Part shown: positions 3,576-27,602 of the stretch, piece by piece | How the letters are laid out: each line of letters begins with the position of its first letter | Numbering within the stretch: the first letter of the stretch is position 1 | Source of the DNA: an uncultured Eubacteriales bacterium | GTDB taxonomy: Bacteria; Acidobacteriota; Aminicenantia; Aminicenantales; Saccharicenantaceae | Direction: 5' to 3' | Length of the DNA stretch: 36,855 nucleotides | Assembly (NCBI GenBank): GCA_964517245.1 | Contig: CAZFBC010000001.1 | Location: 1-36,855 of the forward strand | The notes under the pieces: model-generated | Database searches by the model: none | What the model was told of the DNA's origin: nothing | Seen by the model: the letters and a program-made list of their open reading frames with translations, nothing else | Made by a program: the position numbers and the translations under genes

Positions 3576-4189
3576 TTACCTCCCTGAGCCAGCCTCGTGG
3601 CCGTGGCCAGGACCCCGGCCTTGCTCATCATCTTCTCGAGCGCCGGCTTCCGCTCCTCGATCGGCCGCGAAAACCAGCGACGCGCCGGCAGCTCGACGAA
3701 CCGCCTGAGGAGGAATAGCGGCCTGATCCCCGTCTTGCCCTTCGGTTCTGCCAGGAGCCACTGCCCGCCGGCCGTGGTCGCCAGGAAGGCCCTCGGGTAC
3801 TGGCTCGCCGAGCCCTTGACCCCCGGCAGCGGAATGGTCAGGAACGGGTGGCCCTTCGGACGGATCGGCCCGCCATGCTCCTGGATGGCCGCATAGACCA
3901 CCTCGTCCCGGCCGATGTGCCGGCCCGTCCCCAGCAGGATCACGGCCTGGTCGGGAAGGTGCTTCCCGTACTCGTCGAGCGCCGGCGTGACCTTCGCGCC
4001 CAGCCTGAGGTCGAGGTCCTTCGGGGGCCGCTTGAACGTCCGGCCGCCCTTGTAACTCCGCTTGATGTGAATGATCGTCTGGTCGGCCCAGCTCTCGGCG
4101 TTGCGGAAGAAGGCCCGAGGAAGGAGGCGCGCGATGGCCTGCTTCCTGGTCGCCTCCGCGAAGTCGCCCGTGAGCTTGAGCTCGAGCAT
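3572..4189 (-). CDS. head-tail joining / virion morphogenesis-type protein (HK97 gp10 / Mu gpG-like)
   Basis: Internal start MLELKLTGDF... overlaps the connector stop as ATGA. The motifs EHGGPIRPKG..FLTIPL and ELPARRWF resemble this family. The upstream 255 codons of the 460-aa track ORF are Arg/Gly-rich overlap and were rejected. Confidence 0.45.
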   Translation of the reverse strand: MLELKLTGDFAEATRKQAIARLLPRAFFRNAESWADQTIIHIKRSYKGGRTFKRPPKDLDLRLGAKVTPALDEYGKHLPDQAVILLGTGRHIGRDEVVYAAIQEHGGPIRPKGHPFLTIPLPGVKGSASQYPRAFLATTAGGQWLLAEPKGKTGIRPLFLLRRFVELPARRWFSRPIEERKPALEKMMSKAGVLATATRLAQGGK

Positions 4190-22034: not shown

Positions 22035-23396
22035 CTACTTGGACCGCTTGCGCTTGCCGATCCCGGCCGCCTCCTTCCGCCCTTCGTTGCACCTGAGGCA
22101 GACGATGTCCGTCCCGGACTTGACCGTCTCGGCCGGCGAGAACTCTCCACAGCAATCCATGCAGAAGTAGAGGTCCCCGTCGTCGGCCTTGGCCTTCTTC
22201 CGGGCCGCGGCCTTCGCGGTCGTGACCTTCTCGGCCCGGACCTTCTTCGACTTGGCCGGCCCCGTCACGACGACCGGCCCGATCCCCGGGACGTTGACCA
22301 GCCCGGCCTTGCGGCCGGCCGGCTTCGACTCGGCCGCGATCTTCTCGCGGATCTTGACCCGGGCCGTCCGGCGGGGCTTCTTCCCGGCCTTCTCCTTCGG
22401 CTTCGCCTCGGGCTTCGCCTTGGCCTTCTTCGCGGCCTTCTCCATGAGCGCCTCGGCCTCGGTCGGCTTGGCCGCCTTCGCGGCCTCCTTGAGCCTGGCC
22501 TGGACCTTGTCCTTCACGGCCTGGACCTCGACCCTCGCGGCCGCCTTGCCCTCGGCCTTGCTCCCGTCGCGGAGCTCCTTGGCCTCGTCCTGGATGATCT
22601 CGAACGGGACCCGGCCCGGCTGCCAGACCGTGGCCGACTGCGCCTCGCCCAGGAGGAGCGGGGCCTCGTGGTCCAGGAAGTCGACCAGGAGCCCGGACCG
22701 CCACGAGTAATCGACCAGATGGGTCTCGTGCCACATCTCGGTGATCGCCCCGTGGAACCCGTGGAGGGTCGGCGTGTACTTCGACCCGGCGCCGAAATAG
22801 AACTCGTGGAACTGGTCGTACTTGGCCGGCGGGATGAGCGGGTACTTCCGGTGCATGGCCGCCACGGCCAGAAGCGCCGCCTGCTCGGCCCTGAGCTCGA
22901 TCTTCTTGAGCCCGTCGTGCCACTCGGCGACCCGGGCGAACCGGCCCCTGAGCGCTCCGAGCGCCTCCTCGGCCATGACCTCAAGCTCGAGCTCCTCGAG
23001 CCCCGCGGTGTGCTTCCGGAACAGGACGAAGTCGCCGCGGAAGACCATGTTGTCGCAGACGAAGACCCGGACGCCGGCGCAGAGGCCGACGCTCATCGAC
23101 TTGTTGAGCCCGTTCCTGATGCCCAGGCTCAAGGTCGTCTCCTCGCCCTTGACGATCTCGCTCCCGATCCGCTCGAGGTCCCAGACCCCGAACATCTTGG
23201 AGCCCGGCCGGATGGCGTACTGCTTCCGCTCGACCTTCCAGTCCAGCTTCGAGCACGCCTGGCCGACCGCGTCGATGACCTGGCCGTGGGTGTACGGCCG
23301 GAAGGTCGCCGTCCTGGCGATCGGCAAGGGCTCGGCCCTGACCACCGCCTCCGGGACGATCGACGTGTCCTTGTGAGATAAAAGAGCGCCTGACAT
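22035..23396 (-). CDS. DUF932-like protein with a Lys/Ala-rich basic tail and a C-terminal zinc ribbon
   Basis: 453 aa. The N-terminal ~270 aa (..LSLGIRNGLNKSMSVGLCAGVRVFVCDNMVF..) resemble DUF932 proteins. A KAAKKAKAKPEAKPKEK histone-H1-like tract and CMDCC...CLRC follow. Confidence 0.6.
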   Translation of the reverse strand: MSGALLSHKDTSIVPEAVVRAEPLPIARTATFRPYTHGQVIDAVGQACSKLDWKVERKQYAIRPGSKMFGVWDLERIGSEIVKGEETTLSLGIRNGLNKSMSVGLCAGVRVFVCDNMVFRGDFVLFRKHTAGLEELELEVMAEEALGALRGRFARVAEWHDGLKKIELRAEQAALLAVAAMHRKYPLIPPAKYDQFHEFYFGAGSKYTPTLHGFHGAITEMWHETHLVDYSWRSGLLVDFLDHEAPLLLGEAQSATVWQPGRVPFEIIQDEAKELRDGSKAEGKAAARVEVQAVKDKVQARLKEAAKAAKPTEAEALMEKAAKKAKAKPEAKPKEKAGKKPRRTARVKIREKIAAESKPAGRKAGLVNVPGIGPVVVTGPAKSKKVRAEKVTTAKAAARKKAKADDGDLYFCMDCCGEFSPAETVKSGTDIVCLRCNEGRKEAAGIGKRKRSK

Positions 23397-23425
23397 TAAA
23401 GCACCTCCGAATTGGATTTACGGAC

Positions 23426-23510
23426 CCCCGGGCTTGGGACCGGGGTGCCGCATTAGTCAAGGGCGAAAGCCGGAGTTTTTCTTCCGGCTTTCGCCACTCG
23501 ACCCCTCTGC
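23426..23510 (-). ncRNA. twister-like self-cleaving ribozyme motif, copy A (extended P1)
   Basis: RNA: GCAGAGGGG-[UCGAG-U-GGCGAAAGCCGGA..UCCGGCUUUCGCC-CUUGA]-C-UAAUGCG-GC-A-[CCCCGG UCCCAAGC CCGGGG]. Predicted cleavage is between 23455 and 23454. Confidence 0.6.
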
Positions 23511-23512
23511 GA

Positions 23513-23923
23513 TCATCCATACATGCCGGGGAAGTCGACCGAGGCCATCGAAGCCTCGTCGATGAGGGCGGCGACCTCGTCGAACTCCGTCTCGTCGGTC
23601 GCCTCCGGCAGCGCCCCGCCGGCCGAGCGGAGGCCCTCGGTGATCTCGTCGAGCTCCTCCATGGCCGACTGGAGCGCCTCCCCCTTCGACCCGTTCTGGA
23701 AGCTCTCGGGGAGGTTGTCGTACCAGCTCTCGAGCTCGTCGTGGAGCTCCTGGACGGACGACTCGACGGATGAGAGGGTGTTGACGACCCCTTCGACCTT
23801 GTCCCGGTCGATCCCCTTAAGCTCCCCTGCGGCCTGGGCCAGCTCCTCGACGACCTCGTGGGCCGGCCCGAGCTCGGCCAGCGCCTCCTCGAGCCTTCTC
23901 GCCCTTGACACGTGCTTGGCCAT
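23513..23923 (-). CDS. hypothetical acidic helical protein (136 aa)
   Basis: ATG follows the conserved leader ..ACGGAGGUGUUUCA. The protein is very Glu/Asp-rich (..ELHDELESWYDNLPESFQ..). Confidence 0.6.
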   Translation of the reverse strand: MAKHVSRARRLEEALAELGPAHEVVEELAQAAGELKGIDRDKVEGVVNTLSSVESSVQELHDELESWYDNLPESFQNGSKGEALQSAMEELDEITEGLRSAGGALPEATDETEFDEVAALIDEASMASVDFPGMYG

Positions 23924-23947
23924 TGAAACACCTCCGTATGATGCGTG

Positions 23948-24003
23948 CCGGGGGTTGGGACCCGGCCTCCCGCATTAGAGGCCCCGAAGGGCCTCCCCTC
24001 TGC
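23948..24003 (-). ncRNA. twister-like self-cleaving ribozyme motif, copy B (compensated T1 variant)
   Basis: RNA: GCAGAGGGG-[AGGCCC UUCG GGGCCU]-C-UAAUGC-GG-GAGG-[CCGGG UCCCAACC CCCGG]. The loop ends in CC instead of GC, and the junction dinucleotide is GG instead of GC. Predicted cleavage is at 23977|23976. Confidence 0.7.
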
Positions 24004-24076
24004 GATCCTGAGCCTCCCCCTGCCGACCCCTTGGCCGGCCTGAGGAAGGCCCTCCTGGGCCCTCCCGGGCCCGTTC

Positions 24077-24400
24077 TCAGCCGATCTGGACCACCGCCCT
24101 GGTCTCGCGGTCGACCCATCCATGCCAGCGGGAGAAGAAGACGCCTCCGTCCTTGAGCTCGACCACGTAAAGGTCGACGTAGACCGGCTCCGGGCTCTTC
24201 TTCTCGGTCCAGGAGTTGTGGACGTGGCGCCGGAACTCGACCGGGGTCACGGCCCCGAACAGGCCTCCGCACGCCTCGCACGTGACCGTCCAGGCCTTCG
24301 TCGTCCAGTCCTCCTTCTTGACCTCGTGGGGCCGGCCGCACGCCGGACATTCCACGACCGCGAACGGGTACTCGACATTGAAGCCTCGAAGATAGAACAT
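24077..24400 (-). CDS. hypothetical zinc-ribbon protein (107 aa)
   Basis: True start is MFYLRGFNVE, behind GGAGGUG. It carries CPAC...CEAC. The 17 upstream codons of the track ORF are a translation of ribozyme copy C. Confidence 0.6.
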   Translation of the reverse strand: MFYLRGFNVEYPFAVVECPACGRPHEVKKEDWTTKAWTVTCEACGGLFGAVTPVEFRRHVHNSWTEKKSPEPVYVDLYVVELKDGGVFFSRWHGWVDRETRAVVQIG

Positions 24401-24422
24401 AGAAGCACCTCCGTTTTGGATT

Positions 24423-24479
24423 GGCCTGGGCTTGGGACCAGGCCCGCGCATTAGACGGCCTTCCGGCCGTCCCCTCTGC
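24423..24479 (-). ncRNA. twister-like self-cleaving ribozyme motif, copy C
   Basis: RNA: (UA)GCAGAGGG-[GACGGCC GGAA GGCCGUC]-UAAUGC-GC-G-[GGCCUGG UCCCAAGC CCAGGCC]. The upstream stop UAG shares its G with the motif. Predicted cleavage is at 24453|24452. Confidence 0.7.
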
Positions 24480-24913
24480 TAGAGGCTCCCCTTCTCGTTG
24501 AGGAAGTACTCGATCCGGTCGCCGTACTTCCCGACCATCCGGTCCTTGACCTCCGGTCCGAAGGGGACCTTGACCGTCCGGTACTCGCCCTCGCGGTCGC
24601 CCTTGAGCTTGAAGACCGTCCGGTTCTTGGTGAGCCGGGAGAACTCCTTGTCCCGGACCCACTTGTCCAGGAGGTCGCCGAGGAAGAGCTCGAGGTCCAT
24701 CGCCATGACGCCCCAGGGCGTCTCGACGGCGCCGAGGCCCTTACAGTAAGCCTCGAGCGGGCGGGTGTCGAAGTCGTAATCGTTCGACCCGCCGTGCCCT
24801 TCGTTGGAGACCATCCCGACCCGCTTCCCGTCGACGAAGACGGCCGCGTCGAAGAGGGCGGTCTCTTGCGAGAACCGCGCCGAGTAGTGGATGTTCCGAA
24901 GCTCGATCATCAT
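24479..24913 (-). CDS. hypothetical protein (144 aa)
   Basis: ORF MMIELRNIHYSARFSQETALFDAAVFVDGKRVGMVSNEGHGGSNDYDF... follows the conserved leader. No function is assignable. Confidence 0.6.
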   Translation of the reverse strand: MMIELRNIHYSARFSQETALFDAAVFVDGKRVGMVSNEGHGGSNDYDFDTRPLEAYCKGLGAVETPWGVMAMDLELFLGDLLDKWVRDKEFSRLTKNRTVFKLKGDREGEYRTVKVPFGPEVKDRMVGKYGDRIEYFLNEKGSL

Positions 24914-24937
24914 TGAAGCACCTCCTAAGATTTACGC

Positions 24938-24993
24938 GGGAGGGCTTGGGACCTCCCCTGCGCATTAGACGGCCCGAAGGCCGTCCCCTCTGC
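24938..24993 (-). ncRNA. twister-like self-cleaving ribozyme motif, copy D
   Basis: RNA: GCAGAGGG-[GACGGCC UUCG GGCCGUC]-UAAUGC-GC-AG-[GGGAGG UCCCAAGC CCUCCC]. It starts 1 nt after the upstream UGA. Predicted cleavage is at 24967|24966. Confidence 0.7.
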
Positions 24994-24994
24994 A

Positions 24995-25291
24995 TCATCT
25001 GATCCGGTGGACCGCCAGCACGACCTCCCGGTCGCCCTTGCCGGTCCTGCGGATCGCCTGCTGGCCGGGAACGAGGGTCCGGACCCTCCGCGAATCGGCC
25101 GGCCCGAGGACCTCGGAGATCTCCGGGTTCCCGCTCATGGGTTCGTCGGTGTACTCCTGGACCTCGTGACGGACGGCCTCCGGCAAGCGGTCGGGCGACC
25201 AGCGGTGGATCAAGTAGGACCCTCCGGTCGGCCGGTCCGGCCCTTCGCTCAGCCAGTCCATAGGCTCGCCCAGAATGCCAAGTCTCATCAT
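24995..25291 (-). CDS. hypothetical protein (98 aa)
   Basis: ORF MMRLGILGEPMDWLSEGPDRP... follows the conserved leader AAUGGAGGUGCUUCA. Confidence 0.55.
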   Translation of the reverse strand: MMRLGILGEPMDWLSEGPDRPTGGSYLIHRWSPDRLPEAVRHEVQEYTDEPMSGNPEISEVLGPADSRRVRTLVPGQQAIRRTGKGDREVVLAVHRIR

Positions 25292-25314
25292 TGAAGCACC
25301 TCCATTTAAGATTG

Positions 25315-25375
25315 CCGGGGCTTGGGACCCGGCTCGCGCATTACCGGACGGCCCTTAGGCCGCCCGCCCCTCTGC
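25315..25375 (-). ncRNA. twister-like self-cleaving ribozyme motif, copy E
   Basis: RNA: GCAGAGGGG-[CGGGCGGCC UAAG GGCCGUCCG, one G.U]-G-UAAUGC-GC-GAG-[CCGGG UCCCAAGC CCCGG]. Predicted cleavage is at 25343|25342. Confidence 0.7.
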
Positions 25376-25501
25376 TTCCGGCCAGTAGTGCTTGGCGTCA
25401 CGGCGGCGGCGCCAGGCGCCCTTCCGGGCCGCGACCTTCTTCTGCTCCTTGAGGAGGACCCTGAGGATCCTGCGGTCTCGCTCGGTGAGGGTGATCTTCA
25501 C
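25355..25501 (-). CDS. possible small basic ORF (48 aa, GTG start) reading into ribozyme copy E
   Basis: The GTG overlaps the upstream stop as GTGA. The product is VKITLTERDRRILRVLLKEQKKVAARKGAWRRRRDAKHYW.... Its stop UAA is the loop of the copy E P1 hairpin. It is not in the ORF track. Confidence 0.3.
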   Translation of the reverse strand: MKITLTERDRRILRVLLKEQKKVAARKGAWRRRRDAKHYWPEAEGRAA

Positions 25502-25818
25502 GACCGGCCCTCCTGCTCGCGCCTGAGCTCCCGCCTCTCCTCGAAGAGGGCGTCCTCGTCCGGGCCGGCGAAGGCCTCCAGGACCCGGCCCGTCGACTCC
25601 TCGTAGACCGTCCCGGAGACCGGATCGGTCAGGGACCCATCCGCGTCGTCGCGGATGAACTGGTCGACGTCACAGATCTGGCCGCAAGCGGCGCAGACGT
25701 CGACGGGCTCGTCCGGGTCGAGCCAGGACCGGCTCGGCTTGGTCCCTTCGAGGACGTCCGCCCGGCAGCACGCCGACCGCTCGACGAGCTCCTTCCCGCT
25801 TTGGTACATGGTCGCCAT
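25498..25818 (-). CDS. hypothetical Cys-rich acidic protein (106 aa)
   Basis: ORF MATMYQSGKELVERSACCRAD...CAACGQIC... follows the conserved leader ACGGAGGUGUUUCA. Confidence 0.6.
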   Translation of the reverse strand: MATMYQSGKELVERSACCRADVLEGTKPSRSWLDPDEPVDVCAACGQICDVDQFIRDDADGSLTDPVSGTVYEESTGRVLEAFAGPDEDALFEERRELRREQEGRS

Positions 25819-25845
25819 TGAAACACCTCCGTGAAAGATTTGCTC

Positions 25846-25901
25846 GGCCCCGGCTTGGGACGGGACCCGCGCATTACAGGGCCTCAGGCCCTGCCCTCTG
25901 C
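25846..25901 (-). ncRNA. twister-like self-cleaving ribozyme motif, copy F
   Basis: RNA: (UA)GCAGAGGG-[CAGGGCC UGA GGCCCUG]-UAAUGC-GC-G-[GGUCCCG UCCCAAGC CGGGGCC, one U.G]. Predicted cleavage is at 25876|25875. Confidence 0.7.
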
Positions 25902-26131
25902 TACCAGCGACGGAACTTGACCACCTTGGCGTCCCCGTGGGTGACCTCGATCAGGGTCCTGCCCTGGAAGTCGGTCGTCGAGATCCGGAGGCTGCCGGCC
26001 GGGGTCTCGATCCAGACGCACTCGTCGGTCGCCATCCTGAGGTCGATGATGTGCTCGGGCTTCCGCTCGACCATCACCGTCTTGACGACCTTGCTCGCGG
26101 GCTCCATGACGTGGGTTTGAATAAGTTGCAT
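25901..26131 (-). CDS. hypothetical protein (76 aa)
   Basis: True start is MQLIQTHVMEPASK, behind AAGGAGGUGCUUCG. The rest of the 216-aa track ORF reads through ribozymes G and H and upstream genes in wrong frames. Confidence 0.55.
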   Translation of the reverse strand: MQLIQTHVMEPASKVVKTVMVERKPEHIIDLRMATDECVWIETPAGSLRISTTDFQGRTLIEVTHGDAKVVKFRRW

Positions 26132-26158
26132 CGAAGCACCTCCTTGAGATTTGCTCCG

Positions 26159-26213
26159 CTCGGGCTTGGGACCGAGCTTGCGCATTAACCGGCCCGGAGG
26201 CCGGCCCCTCTGC
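26159..26213 (-). ncRNA. twister-like self-cleaving ribozyme motif, copy G
   Basis: RNA: GCAGAGGGG-[CCGGCC UCCG GGCCGG]-U-UAAUGC-GC-AAG-[CUCGG UCCCAAGC CCGAG]. It starts 1 nt after the upstream UAA. Predicted cleavage is at 26187|26186. Confidence 0.7.
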
Positions 26214-26214
26214 G

Positions 26215-26409
26215 TTAAGCGAGAATGGCCTTGAAGTCCTCGAGCAGGCCGGCCGCCGGACCCTGGACCGGCTGGCCCTCCGCCTTCACGACGAAGGCCT
26301 CGAGGCACCAAGCGATGAGGTCGAGCTCGTCCTTCTTGAGCTTGACCTCGACGACGACGTCCTTGACCCGGCCGCCGTCCCGCTCCTTGAACATGCTGAA
26401 GACCATCAT
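26215..26409 (-). CDS. hypothetical protein (64 aa)
   Basis: ORF MMVFSMFKERDGGRVKDVVVEVKL... follows the conserved leader ACGGAGGUGCUUUC. Confidence 0.55.
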   Translation of the reverse strand: MMVFSMFKERDGGRVKDVVVEVKLKKDELDLIAWCLEAFVVKAEGQPVQGPAAGLLEDFKAILA

Positions 26410-26431
26410 GAAAGCACCTCCGTTTAAGATT

Positions 26432-26484
26432 GGACGGGCTTGGGACCGTCCTGCGCATTACACGGCCGAAGCCGTGCCCTCTGC
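26432..26484 (-). ncRNA. twister-like self-cleaving ribozyme motif, copy H
   Basis: RNA: (UA)GCAGAGGG-[CACGGC UUCG GCCGUG]-UAAUGC-GC-A-[GGACGG UCCCAAGC CCGUCC]. The upstream stop UAG shares its G with the motif. Predicted cleavage is at 26460|26459. Confidence 0.7.
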
Positions 26485-26735
26485 TACTTCCGGCGCCGCG
26501 CCTCGGCGACGAGCTTCGCCGTGGCCAGGGCCGCGTCGTACATCCCCGCAACCGTCCGGGGGTCTCTCGCGGCCGCCTTCTTCTCGATCTCCTCCGAGAG
26601 GTAGGAGATGTAGGAGACCGAGGTGCTGTACCCGAGGTCGTCCATCCGCCTCCGGGCCTCCATCATCTCGCGCTCGGTGTCGAAGAGGACCTGGACGACG
26701 CCTTCACCGTTCCGCCAGTAAAGAAGCTCGAACAT
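26484..26735 (-). CDS. hypothetical protein (83 aa), first gene of the early operon
   Basis: ORF MFELLYWRNGEGVVQVLFDTEREMMEARRRMDDLGY... It has the same leader (AAAUCUUCAAGGAGGUGUUUCA-AUG) as the ribozyme-preceded genes, but no ribozyme lies upstream. Confidence 0.6.
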   Translation of the reverse strand: MFELLYWRNGEGVVQVLFDTEREMMEARRRMDDLGYSTSVSYISYLSEEIEKKAAARDPRTVAGMYDAALATAKLVAEARRRK

Positions 26736-27257
26736 TGAAACACCTCCTTGAAGATTTGAGGAACGCTCCTCATTGAAGGGTCGAGCTCGTCGGCGGCGAT
26801 CCGCTCGGCCCTTTAATGAGGAGGCGGACCTTGCGGCCCGCCATCCTCGAGGTGATTCTTTGGTGCTTCTCGCGATGTCCTCGGCCCCGCTCCTTCCAGG
26901 GTTTTGTTCCGAGAGCCTTCCGGCCTCGGCCTGTTTGCTTCGGACATTCGTTCTGCTAAGTCGCCTAGGTTAGGCAGGTTCTCCCGCTTTCTTCCATCCC
27001 GACTTAGCTTTTCAAGGATCTGTCCCGCTGCCCCCCGGGCAGCGTCAACTACACCCCTATACTGCCGGGGTTCTTATAGGAAGTCAATGGGGGGGACGAA
27101 AATAATTGTCTTATAAGTTGCAGATAACGAAGGGCTTACAAAGAATCTTTCGGAGGCGGGGTTTTCCTGGCCTAGTGGATGATAAAAACCGGCTAATCTA
27201 CAGGCTCGACAATTCGGCCTTCACCGGCCGGCCCGAGGCCTCGGTCGGGCGCTCGCG
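26736..27257 (-). promoter_or_regulatory. ~520-bp non-coding boundary between the end of the late module and the start of the early operon
   Basis: This is the only long gap without a credible ORF. It has an AT-rich core at about 27090..27200 and a perfect inverted repeat GCTGCCC-ccc-GGGCAGC at 27029..27045. A weak minus-strand candidate promoter reads TTGACT (27087..27082), N17, CAGTAT (27064..27059). Confidence 0.5.
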
Positions 27258-27602
27258 CTACTCTTCGAACGTGGCCGGAAGCTCGCCCTCCGGCAGCACG
27301 TCGACGGCCTCGAGCCCGATCTCGAACGGAGGCGCCACGGGCCAGCCCGACGTATCGATGCTGAGCTTCGACGCGCCTCCGCCGGCCGGCACCGGATTGG
27401 GCGCGAACTCATGGCCGCCGGCGAGGTTGACGCACCTCAGGAAGATAGGCCCAGCAAATCCATCAAGCGGTTGAACGTCGAGGTTATAAACCGCCAGATC
27501 GCCGCGCTCAGCCTGCAAAGCCAACGGATCAGCCGTAAGAAACGCGCCTGGGGCTGCCAGGACCTCCAGCGTCACGGTCGCGACTCCCTTCTGAAAAGCC
27601 AT
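27258..27602 (-). CDS. hypothetical tail-module protein (114 aa)
   Basis: It is the last ORF of the late module and overlaps the upstream gene as TAATG. The protein is beta-rich and Pro/Gly-rich. Confidence 0.5.
   Translation of the reverse strand: MAFQKGVATVTLEVLAAPGAFLTADPLALQAERGDLAVYNLDVQPLDGFAGPIFLRCVNLAGGHEFAPNPVPAGGGASKLSIDTSGWPVAPPFEIGLEAVDVLPEGELPATFEE

What the first reader, a model, noticed from the sequence alone, without database searches (positions are those of the whole stretch)
23948..24003. Copy B carries a double change that preserves the predicted T1 pseudoknot
Seen in sequence: seven copies have the loop UCCCAAGC. Six of those seven have GC right after UAAUGC; in copy A the GC follows UAAUGCG, which fits a 4-bp P2 (UGCG/CGCA). 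Copy B alone has the loop UCCCAACC, and it has GG after UAAUGC. Pairing junction nt 1-2 antiparallel to loop nt 8-7 turns G-C/C-G into G-C/G-C, so the two substitutions compensate each other across about 15 nt. Inference: this is the kind of long-range covariation expected only if the loop really docks on the junction, as in the twister T1 pseudoknot. It is hard to explain for a simple terminator or operator hairpin.
Basis: partly seen in the sequence, partly recalled or inferred. Interest (0 to 1): 0.6.

Follow-up and report, generated by a model that had tools for sequence, protein, structure and literature searches.

The report
Compensated pseudoknot in a phage twister ribozyme
One of eight self-cutting "twister" RNAs between the early genes of an uncultured phage carries two matched base changes that keep a known two-base-pair tertiary contact intact; this confirms the fold, but it is an ordinary feature of a well-described ribozyme family.

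Summary
The window has eight minus-strand elements that score 47-59 bits against Rfam Twister-P5 (RF02684, cut-off 37.6). Seven have junction GC and loop UCCCAAGC. Copy B (23949-24004, one base off the given coordinates) has junction GG and loop UCCCAACC, which turns a C-G pair into G-C. These are the only two changes in copy B's conserved core, and they are pairing partners.

In 133 distinct homologues from viral contigs, this two-base-pair contact is kept in 95% of cells. It occurs as A-U/C-G, G-C/C-G, G-C/G-C and A-U/G-C, and the flipped pair never changes on one side only. A syntenic relative phage shows the same swap at a different gene junction. An independent sample from cellular genome assemblies adds three more GG/CC cases.

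One correction concerns the name. In the crystal-structure nomenclature this contact is pseudoknot T2 (PK1 in one later paper). T1 is the GGG/CCC contact.

The fold, both pseudoknots and their covariation were published in 2014. Ribozyme runs between phage genes have been described since 2011. This is therefore a new member of a known kind.

The parts
23949..24004 (-). Copy B, complete type-P5 twister ribozyme (56 nt)
   Evidence: RF02684 at 59.1 bits against a cut-off of 37.6, full model 1-58; 62.5 bits with own model R1
23969..23971 (-). Junction GGG after UAAUGC. It supplies the 5' strand (GG) of the 2-bp pseudoknot: 23970/23969 if P2 has 4 bp, 23971/23970 if it has 3 bp
   Evidence: Sequence. 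The other copies have GC here. Column 66 of A3 is C in 115 and G in 8 distinct homologues, always matched by column 87
23953..23954 (-). Loop L4 nt 7-8 = CC (GC in the other seven copies); 3' strand of the same pseudoknot
   Evidence: Sequence; pair counts
23976..23977 (-). Predicted cleavage site, U23977 | A23976 (the U-A step of UAAUGC between P1 and P2)
   Evidence: Position follows the twister consensus and crystal structures (PMC5408937). Inferred, not measured
23978..23995 (-). P1 hairpin GAGGCCC-UUCG-GGGCCUC, closed by a loop as in type P5
   Evidence: cmscan structure line; MFE fold; P1 pairs covary strongly in A3
23996..23998 (-). GGG of GAGGG, the 5' strand of the 3-bp pseudoknot T1, pairing with C23959-C23957 of the loop
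   Evidence: Invariant in the window. Homologues show GAG/CUC and GUG/CAC compensated variants
23949..23964 (-). P4 stem CGGG/CCCG (23964-23961 and 23952-23949) enclosing the loop UCCCAACC (23960-23953)
   Evidence: cmscan alignment; P4 pairs covary
23921..23948 (-). Leader with Shine-Dalgarno GGAGG (23936-23932) and ATG (23923-23921) of the 136-aa gene that copy B would release
   Evidence: Sequence; ORF list; the same leader type follows all eight copies
23428..23511 (-). Copy A: 4-bp P2, junction GC, loop ..GC, long P1
   Evidence: 47.4 bits
24426..24480 (-). Copy C (GC/GC)
   Evidence: 56.8 bits
24940..24994 (-). Copy D (GC/GC)
   Evidence: 57.4 bits
25316..25376 (-). Copy E (GC/GC)
   Evidence: 49.0 bits
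25849..25902 (-). Copy F (GC/GC)
   Evidence: 54.3 bits
26160..26214 (-). Copy G (GC/GC)
   Evidence: 59.3 bits
26434..26485 (-). Copy H (GC/GC)
   Evidence: 56.0 bits

Best explanation
Copy B is a functional type-P5 twister self-cleaving ribozyme. In twister, two nucleotides of loop L4 (nt 7-8) bulge out and pair with a dinucleotide that directly follows P2, forming a 2-bp pseudoknot that stacks on P2.

In seven copies this contact is 5'-GC-3' with 5'-GC-3' (G-C and C-G). In copy B it is 5'-GG-3' with 5'-CC-3' (G-C and G-C). The second pair is flipped and the contact is kept. By my recollection of the nearest-neighbour parameters, the stacking energy is about the same.

The RNA is predicted to cut itself between U23977 and A23976 while the early operon is transcribed. 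That would separate the upstream cistron (24077-24400), which would end in the P1 hairpin and a 2',3'-cyclic phosphate. The downstream 136-aa cistron (23513-23923) would begin with a 5'-OH, the P4/pseudoknot remnant and a standard Shine-Dalgarno leader.

Shown: family membership by score, the compensated pair, and family-wide covariation. Inferred: cleavage in vivo and what it does to the mRNAs.
For: Eight RF02684 matches at 47-59 bits, cut-off 37.6, and none elsewhere in the 2.8-Mb assembly. Apart from covarying stem positions, copy B departs from the conserved consensus letters only at the two partner positions.

A pattern that leaves those positions free gave 190 unique viral sequences. Junction/loop combinations were AC/GU 103, GC/GC 38 (plus 14 in the 4-bp-P2 register), GC/GU 11, GG/CC 8-9 and AG/CU 2. 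In all, 183 of 190 were paired, against 129 +/- 3.5 (maximum 144) in 2000 shuffles.

On a CM alignment of 133 distinct sequences, the pair at columns 66/87 is C-G 115, G-C 8, one-sided 0. The pair at columns 64/88 is A-U 86, G-C 40, G-U 4. The helix is 95% paired, and sliding the partner columns drops the whole structure to 25-46% paired.

Single contigs mix AC/GU, GC/GC, GG/CC and AG/CU copies. A syntenic relative with 40-60% aa identity has its GG/CC copy in front of the 453-aa gene homologue and a GC/GC copy in front of the 136-aa gene homologue. That is the reverse of the window.

An independent sample from cellular genome assemblies has three more GG/CC twisters among 29. High-throughput assays of natural type-P1 twisters show that this 2-bp pseudoknot is the element least tolerant of mismatches: mean fraction cleaved falls from 0.76 to 0.53 to 0.36 with one and two imperfections (PMC11662667). 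This explains why single changes are not seen.
Against: The run GGG in the junction leaves the register ambiguous. The C-rich 3' side (CCCAACCCCCG) could allow slipped alternatives to P4, and the MFE fold, which cannot model pseudoknots, draws such an alternative. No P5 stem is formed by the flanks, but P5 is optional and is not part of the Rfam model. Part of the GG/CC count reflects one shared sub-lineage rather than independent events.
Confidence: 0.9

Rival explanations
1. Copy B did not undergo a double mutation in this array. It is a member of an older GG/CC sub-lineage of twisters that arrived by recombination or cassette exchange between phages. On this reading the within-window contrast is lineage sorting, not a local compensatory event. 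The structural conclusion is unchanged.
For: Copy B's 3' half (UAAUGCGGGAGGCCGGGUCCCAACCCCCG) differs by a single inserted base pair in P4 (an extra G in the 5' strand, an extra C in the 3' strand) from L062, and closely resembles L059, L103 and L016. It is much less like its seven neighbours. GG/CC copies precede unrelated genes in different contigs. Gene order within the array differs between the window and its syntenic relative.
Against: GG/CC also occurs in other sequence contexts: a 3-bp register in L068 and L164, and uGG with an A-U fourth P2 pair in L067. AG/CU occurs too. The flip has therefore arisen more than once. Fifty-five-nucleotide sequences cannot resolve a tree.
Confidence: 0.5
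2. The two substitutions are unrelated chance changes, and the elements are plain hairpins (terminators, operators or RNase sites), not ribozymes.
For: GC-rich hairpins in intergenic gaps are common, and only one copy of eight shows the change.
Against: Rfam scores are 10-22 bits above the cut-off for all eight. No T-run follows any hairpin, and the terminator and promoter scans over 23300-27400 are at or below the shuffled expectation. The family-wide covariation of exactly these two columns has zero one-sided changes.
Confidence: 0.02
3. Copy B is a decaying, inactive copy. The changes are tolerated because selection on it has lapsed.
For: It is the only copy separated from the upstream stop codon by a ~72-nt spacer (24005-24076).
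Against: It has the second-best Rfam score of the eight (59.1 bits), intact P1, P2 and P4, and all conserved loop nucleotides. A lapse of selection would not yield exactly two complementary changes.
Confidence: 0.05

Closest known systems
Type-P5 twister ribozyme, Rfam RF02684 (twister class; Roth et al. 2014, as cited in PMC5408937)
   Same: Same order of elements: P2 3' strand, GAGGG, P1 hairpin, U^AA, P2 5' strand, dinucleotide, linker, P4 with loop UCCCAAGC. Same conserved nucleotides and both pseudoknots. Scores are well above the cut-off.
   Different: Six of the eight window copies, and most viral homologues, have a 3-bp rather than a 4-bp P2. The flanks form no P5 stem. Copy B has the minority G-C orientation of the second pseudoknot pair, seen in 8 of 133 distinct homologues.
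env22 and Oryza sativa twister crystal structures (4RGE/5DUN and 4OJI, as reviewed in PMC5408937)
   Same: The L2 'conserved GC' dinucleotide pairs with the two bulged L4 nucleotides (T2) and stacks on P2. CCC(A) of L4 pairs with L1 (T1). The cleavage site is U-A.
   Different: Those are type P1 or P1/P3 constructs with GC/GC. The window copies are circularly permuted (type P5), and copy B has GG/CC. No structure or assay of a GG/CC variant was found in the papers I read.
Clustered self-cleaving ribozymes flanking genes in prophages (hammerheads: Perreault et al. 2011, PMC3088659; general statement in PMC6765202)
   Same: Several ribozymes lie in close proximity between single genes or short gene blocks of phage origin. 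The proposed role is to cut long phage transcripts into gene-length mRNAs.
   Different: Here all eight are one class (twister-P5). They occupy eight intergenic gaps along one early gene run, seven of them consecutive, and each is followed by the same type of translation leader.

Membership tests
Twister ribozyme, type P5 (RF02684) | Covariance-model score above the curated gathering score | tested here: met
   Copy B 59.1 bits against 37.6; all eight copies 47.4-59.3 bits, full-length matches
Twister ribozyme, type P5 (RF02684) | Stems P1, P2 and P4 present and supported by covariation | tested here: met
   In 133 distinct homologues, 99% of cells are paired, 17 of 19 pairs show changes on both sides, 0 of 500 shuffles reach the observed values, and slid controls give 25-46% paired
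Twister ribozyme, type P5 (RF02684) | Highly conserved nucleotides of L1 and L4 (GAGGG, UAA, G-UCCCAA-..-C) | tested here: met
   All are present in copy B and in the seven other copies
Twister ribozyme, type P5 (RF02684) | 3-bp pseudoknot T1 (L1 GGG with L4 CCC) | tested here: met
   GGG 23998-23996 with CCC 23959-23957. Homologues carry compensated GAG/CUC and GUG/CAC variants; the three pairs are 99.7% paired
Twister ribozyme, type P5 (RF02684) | 2-bp pseudoknot T2 (dinucleotide after P2 with L4 nt 7-8) | tested here: met
   GG/CC in copy B and GC/GC in the others. Family-wide 95% paired with four Watson-Crick combinations and no one-sided change at the flipped pair
Twister ribozyme, type P5 (RF02684) | Type-P5 permutation: P1 closed by a loop, and termini between P4 and the 3' strand of P2 | tested here: met
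   Order of elements in the cmscan alignment. The optional P5 stem itself is absent: flank duplex energies are no better than shuffles in 7 of 8 copies
Twister ribozyme, type P5 (RF02684) | Site-specific self-cleavage at the U-A step, giving 2',3'-cyclic phosphate and 5'-OH ends | not testable with these tools
   This needs a cleavage assay or end-specific RNA-seq.
Intrinsic (rho-independent) terminator | GC-rich hairpin followed directly by a run of U | tested here: not met
   The only terminator-like site in 23300-27400 is at 23405-23385, outside every twister copy. The shuffled expectation is 3.1. The P1 hairpins are followed by UAAUGC

The most novel reading that the evidence does not exclude
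The pseudoknot variant itself is ordinary, but its setting may not be. In a widespread group of environmental tailed phages, a type-P5 twister plus a standard Shine-Dalgarno leader appears to form a repeated 'punctuation cassette' in front of most small early genes. This would convert one early transcript into a set of monocistronic mRNAs. Each would be capped by a 5'-OH structured remnant and closed by a P1 hairpin with a cyclic phosphate, giving every early gene its own stability and translation independent of its neighbours. A further speculation is that the differing stems and pseudoknot dinucleotides within one array keep neighbouring copies from mis-pairing with each other.
Probability: 0.4. 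Interest if true: 0.55.

Novelty: new member of a known kind. Interest (0 to 1): 0.25.

Why it matters
The compensated pair adds independent natural evidence that these eight elements fold as twisters. It also provides a ready-made mutant cycle for testing them: GC/GC, GG/CC and the two mismatched singles. It adds little beyond that. The two pseudoknots and their covariation were part of the original description of the class and are seen in four crystal structures. The more useful by-product is the survey. Arrays of type-P5 twisters, with 8 to 13 pattern matches in single viral stretches, are common in uncultured phage genomes, and the biological role of such arrays is still unproven. This phage and its syntenic relative would be clean material for asking what ribozyme punctuation of an early operon does.

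Tried and rejected
No in vivo evidence could be obtained.

(2) A MAFFT alignment of the eight copies (A1) misaligned copies A and E because of their long P1 inserts. I replaced it with a gap-free 14-sequence seed (A2) and a covariance model (R1).

(3) The same pattern in genome contigs returned mostly chance matches. By my estimate, a 20-base pattern with two variable gaps is expected to occur about 300 times by chance in 596 Gb. Only 29 of the stretches in 100 loci were real twisters by the CM, so I used only those.

(4) My crude stem filter was too strict, keeping 20 of 126, and I dropped it in favour of the CM.

(5) I looked for a P5 stem between the flanks and found none.

(6) I looked for a link between the GG/CC type and a particular downstream gene and found none.

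(7) A permissive Rfam scan of 23300-27400 for other ribozyme classes found nothing beyond the eight twisters.

(8) PHROG searches of the small array genes gave only two weak unknown-function hits.

Full report
**What is there**

The window is a complete contig of a metagenome-assembled genome, but its content is a tailed phage. All genes run on the minus strand and include terminase, portal, major head protein, RecT-like annealing protein, exonuclease and a DNA methyltransferase.

A scan against Rfam at curated thresholds finds eight matches, all to Twister-P5 (RF02684) and all on the minus strand. Scores are 47.4-59.3 bits against a cut-off of 37.6. No other copy exists in the 2.8-Mb assembly. 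A permissive scan of 23300-27400 finds no other RNA family.

The eight copies lie in intergenic gaps between small genes of unknown function, 64-144 aa. Each is followed by a similar leader with GGAGGUG and a start codon. Inside the array there are no promoter-like sites. The only terminator-like site, at 23405-23385, lies outside every copy.

**The observation**

Read as RNA, copies C-H are (N)GCA-GAGGG-[P1 hairpin]-UAA-UGC-GC-linker-[P4 with loop UCCCAAGC]. Copy A has CGCA...UGCG-GC, which is a 4-bp P2. Copy B (23949-24004, one base off the coordinates given) reads:

CGCA GAGGG GAGGCCC UUCG GGGCCUC UAA UGCG GG AGGC CGGG UCCCAACC CCCG

- **Loop:** nt 7-8 are CC (23954, 23953) instead of GC.
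- **Junction:** the dinucleotide is GG instead of GC, at 23970/23969 with the 4-bp P2 or 23971/23970 with a 3-bp P2.
- **Pairing:** read antiparallel, G-C/C-G becomes G-C/G-C.

These are the only two departures of copy B from about 26 core positions that are invariant in the other seven copies. By simple counting, two random substitutions would hit this one pair with complementary bases about once in a thousand.

**Test in homologues**

I scanned IMG/VR with a pattern that fixes GCAGAGGG, TAATGC and TCCCAA but leaves the four positions in question free.

*Regex tally.* The 190 unique sequences give these junction/loop combinations:

| Junction/loop | Count |
|---|---|
| AC/GU | 103 |
| GC/GC | 38 (plus 14 more when the 4-bp-P2 register is allowed) |
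| GC/GU | 11 |
| GG/CC | 8-9 |
| AG/CU | 2 |
| CG/CG | 1 |

In all, 183 of 190 are paired, against 129 +/- 3.5 (maximum 144) in 2000 shuffles.

*Covariance-model alignment.* I built a model from a gap-free seed. It found 280 matches in the window plus 99 loci, and the best 150 were aligned. The named structure, including both pseudoknots, was then counted on 133 distinct rows.

- The pair that is flipped in copy B is C-G in 115, G-C in 8, and never changed on one side only.
- Its 10 unpaired cells are G/G, mostly (by inspection of the aligned rows) sequences with a 4-bp P2 that sit one column out of register.
- The neighbouring pair is A-U 86, G-C 40, G-U 4.
- The helix is 95% paired.
- For the whole structure, 0 of 500 shuffles reach the observed values. 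Sliding the partner columns by 1-3 drops pairing to 25-46%.

*Independent sample.* A second sample from cellular genome assemblies was mostly chance matches to the pattern. The model recovered 29 real twisters there. Three of them are GG/CC, from MAGs labelled Nitrospira, Acetobacteraceae and Chloroflexota.

**Are the flips independent?**

Single viral contigs mix AC/GU, GC/GC, GG/CC and AG/CU copies.

The contig IMGVR_UViG_3300037486_000364 is a syntenic relative of this phage, with 35-66% protein identity along the genome. Its array has one GG/CC copy among seven. That copy stands in front of the homologue of the 453-aa gene, where the window has the GC/GC copy A. The copy in front of the homologue of the 136-aa gene is GC/GC, where the window has copy B.

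So at two gene junctions shared by the two phages the state differs, and both partners differ together.

On the other hand, copy B's 3' half is nearly identical to GG/CC twisters of unrelated contigs such as L062, L059 and L103. GG/CC copies precede unrelated genes. Copy B may therefore belong to an older GG/CC sub-lineage that moves between phages, rather than being a fresh double mutant. GG/CC also occurs in at least three sequence contexts (cGGG, GGU in the 3-bp register, uGG), and AG/CU occurs as well, so the flip has arisen more than once.

**What it is and how it works**

The contact is a known part of the twister fold. The review of the four crystal structures (PMC5408937) gives this account:

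- P4 is extended by an invariant G-C pair and a U-A trans pair.
- The two L4 nucleotides between them bulge out and pair with the conserved 'GC' dinucleotide of L2. This forms pseudoknot T2, stacked on P2.
- The remaining CCCA of L4 pairs with L1 to form T1.

The CHiTA paper calls it PK1 (PMC11662667).

CHiTA measured natural type-P1 twisters from 2625 candidates and found this 2-bp element the least tolerant of mismatches. Mean fraction cleaved falls from 0.76 to 0.53 with one imperfection and to 0.36 with two, and only G-U wobbles are tolerated. That explains the absence of one-sided changes.

The cleavage site is the U-A step between P1 and P2, which in copy B is U23977 | A23976. This position is inferred from the consensus, not measured.

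Cleavage would leave the upstream message ending in the P1 hairpin with a cyclic phosphate. The downstream message would begin with a 5'-OH, the P4 hairpin and the standard leader. Processing of long phage transcripts into gene-length mRNAs has been proposed for clustered hammerheads in prophages since 2011 (PMC3088659). It has also been proposed for twisters (PMC6765202), and it remains unproven.

**Departures from the textbook picture**

- Six of the eight copies, and most viral homologues, have three rather than four Watson-Crick pairs in P2.
- The flanks form no P5 stem. P5 is optional and is not part of the Rfam model.
- MFE folding recovers P1 in seven of the eight copies and P2 in seven, but it often draws alternatives to P4, as expected for a pseudoknotted RNA.

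**Verdict**

The finding is a clean natural example of a feature already established for this ribozyme class, in new members of a known family. Its interest is modest. The setting is more interesting: one-class arrays of type-P5 twisters coupled to a standard leader, common in uncultured phages. That arrangement is itself a known kind and is covered by other findings on this window.

Noticed in passing
L088:7722-7776, L064:1707-1761, L165:567-625, L190:2907-2963 and 3798-3860: The other pseudoknot (T1, GGG/CCC) also shows compensated variants in homologues: GAG with CUC, and GUG with CAC.
   Followed up: partly
window 23428-26485 (all eight copies): Two P2 architectures coexist in one array. 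Copies A and B can form a 4-bp P2 (CGCA/UGCG) before the pseudoknot dinucleotide. C-H have 3 bp, and the Rfam alignment shows a one-base deletion there. The review of the crystal structures notes a suggestion that changing the P2 length might disturb the active site.
   Followed up: partly
window 24005-24076: Copy B is the only copy separated from the upstream stop codon, by a ~72-nt G-rich spacer. In the other copies the stop codon lies within a few bases of, or inside, the ribozyme's 5' end. No Rfam match falls in the spacer.
   Followed up: partly
window 24426-24480 and 24940-24994: Copies C and D have identical P1 stems (GACGGCC/GGCCGUC) with different loops (GGAA, UUCG). This suggests a recent duplication or gene conversion between neighbouring copies.
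   Followed up: no
L031 + L067 (IMGVR_UViG_3300037486_000364): This is a syntenic relative phage with seven twisters. The small genes of its array are partly the same as in the window but stand in a different order, as if gene-plus-ribozyme units were shuffled.
   Followed up: partly
L051 (IMGVR_UViG_3300014204_000010), L036, L082, L043, L088: Some viral stretches carry very long arrays of type-P5 twisters: 13 pattern matches in 12 kb of L051, and 5 to 8 in L036, L082, L043 and L088. The covariance model finds further copies in several of these.
   Followed up: partly
window 25355-25501: A possible 48-codon ORF runs into the P1 region of copy E. The junction between it and the preceding 106-aa gene (25498-25818) is the only gene junction in the array without a twister.
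   Followed up: no
L129-L247 (genome-contig scan): True type-P5 twisters with this core turn up in assemblies labelled with many bacterial phyla (Nitrospira, Acetobacteraceae, Chloroflexota, Caldisericales, Gemmatimonadaceae, Smithella, Saccharimonadales and others). They probably lie on phage or prophage contigs. Most raw pattern hits in that collection were chance matches.
   Followed up: partly
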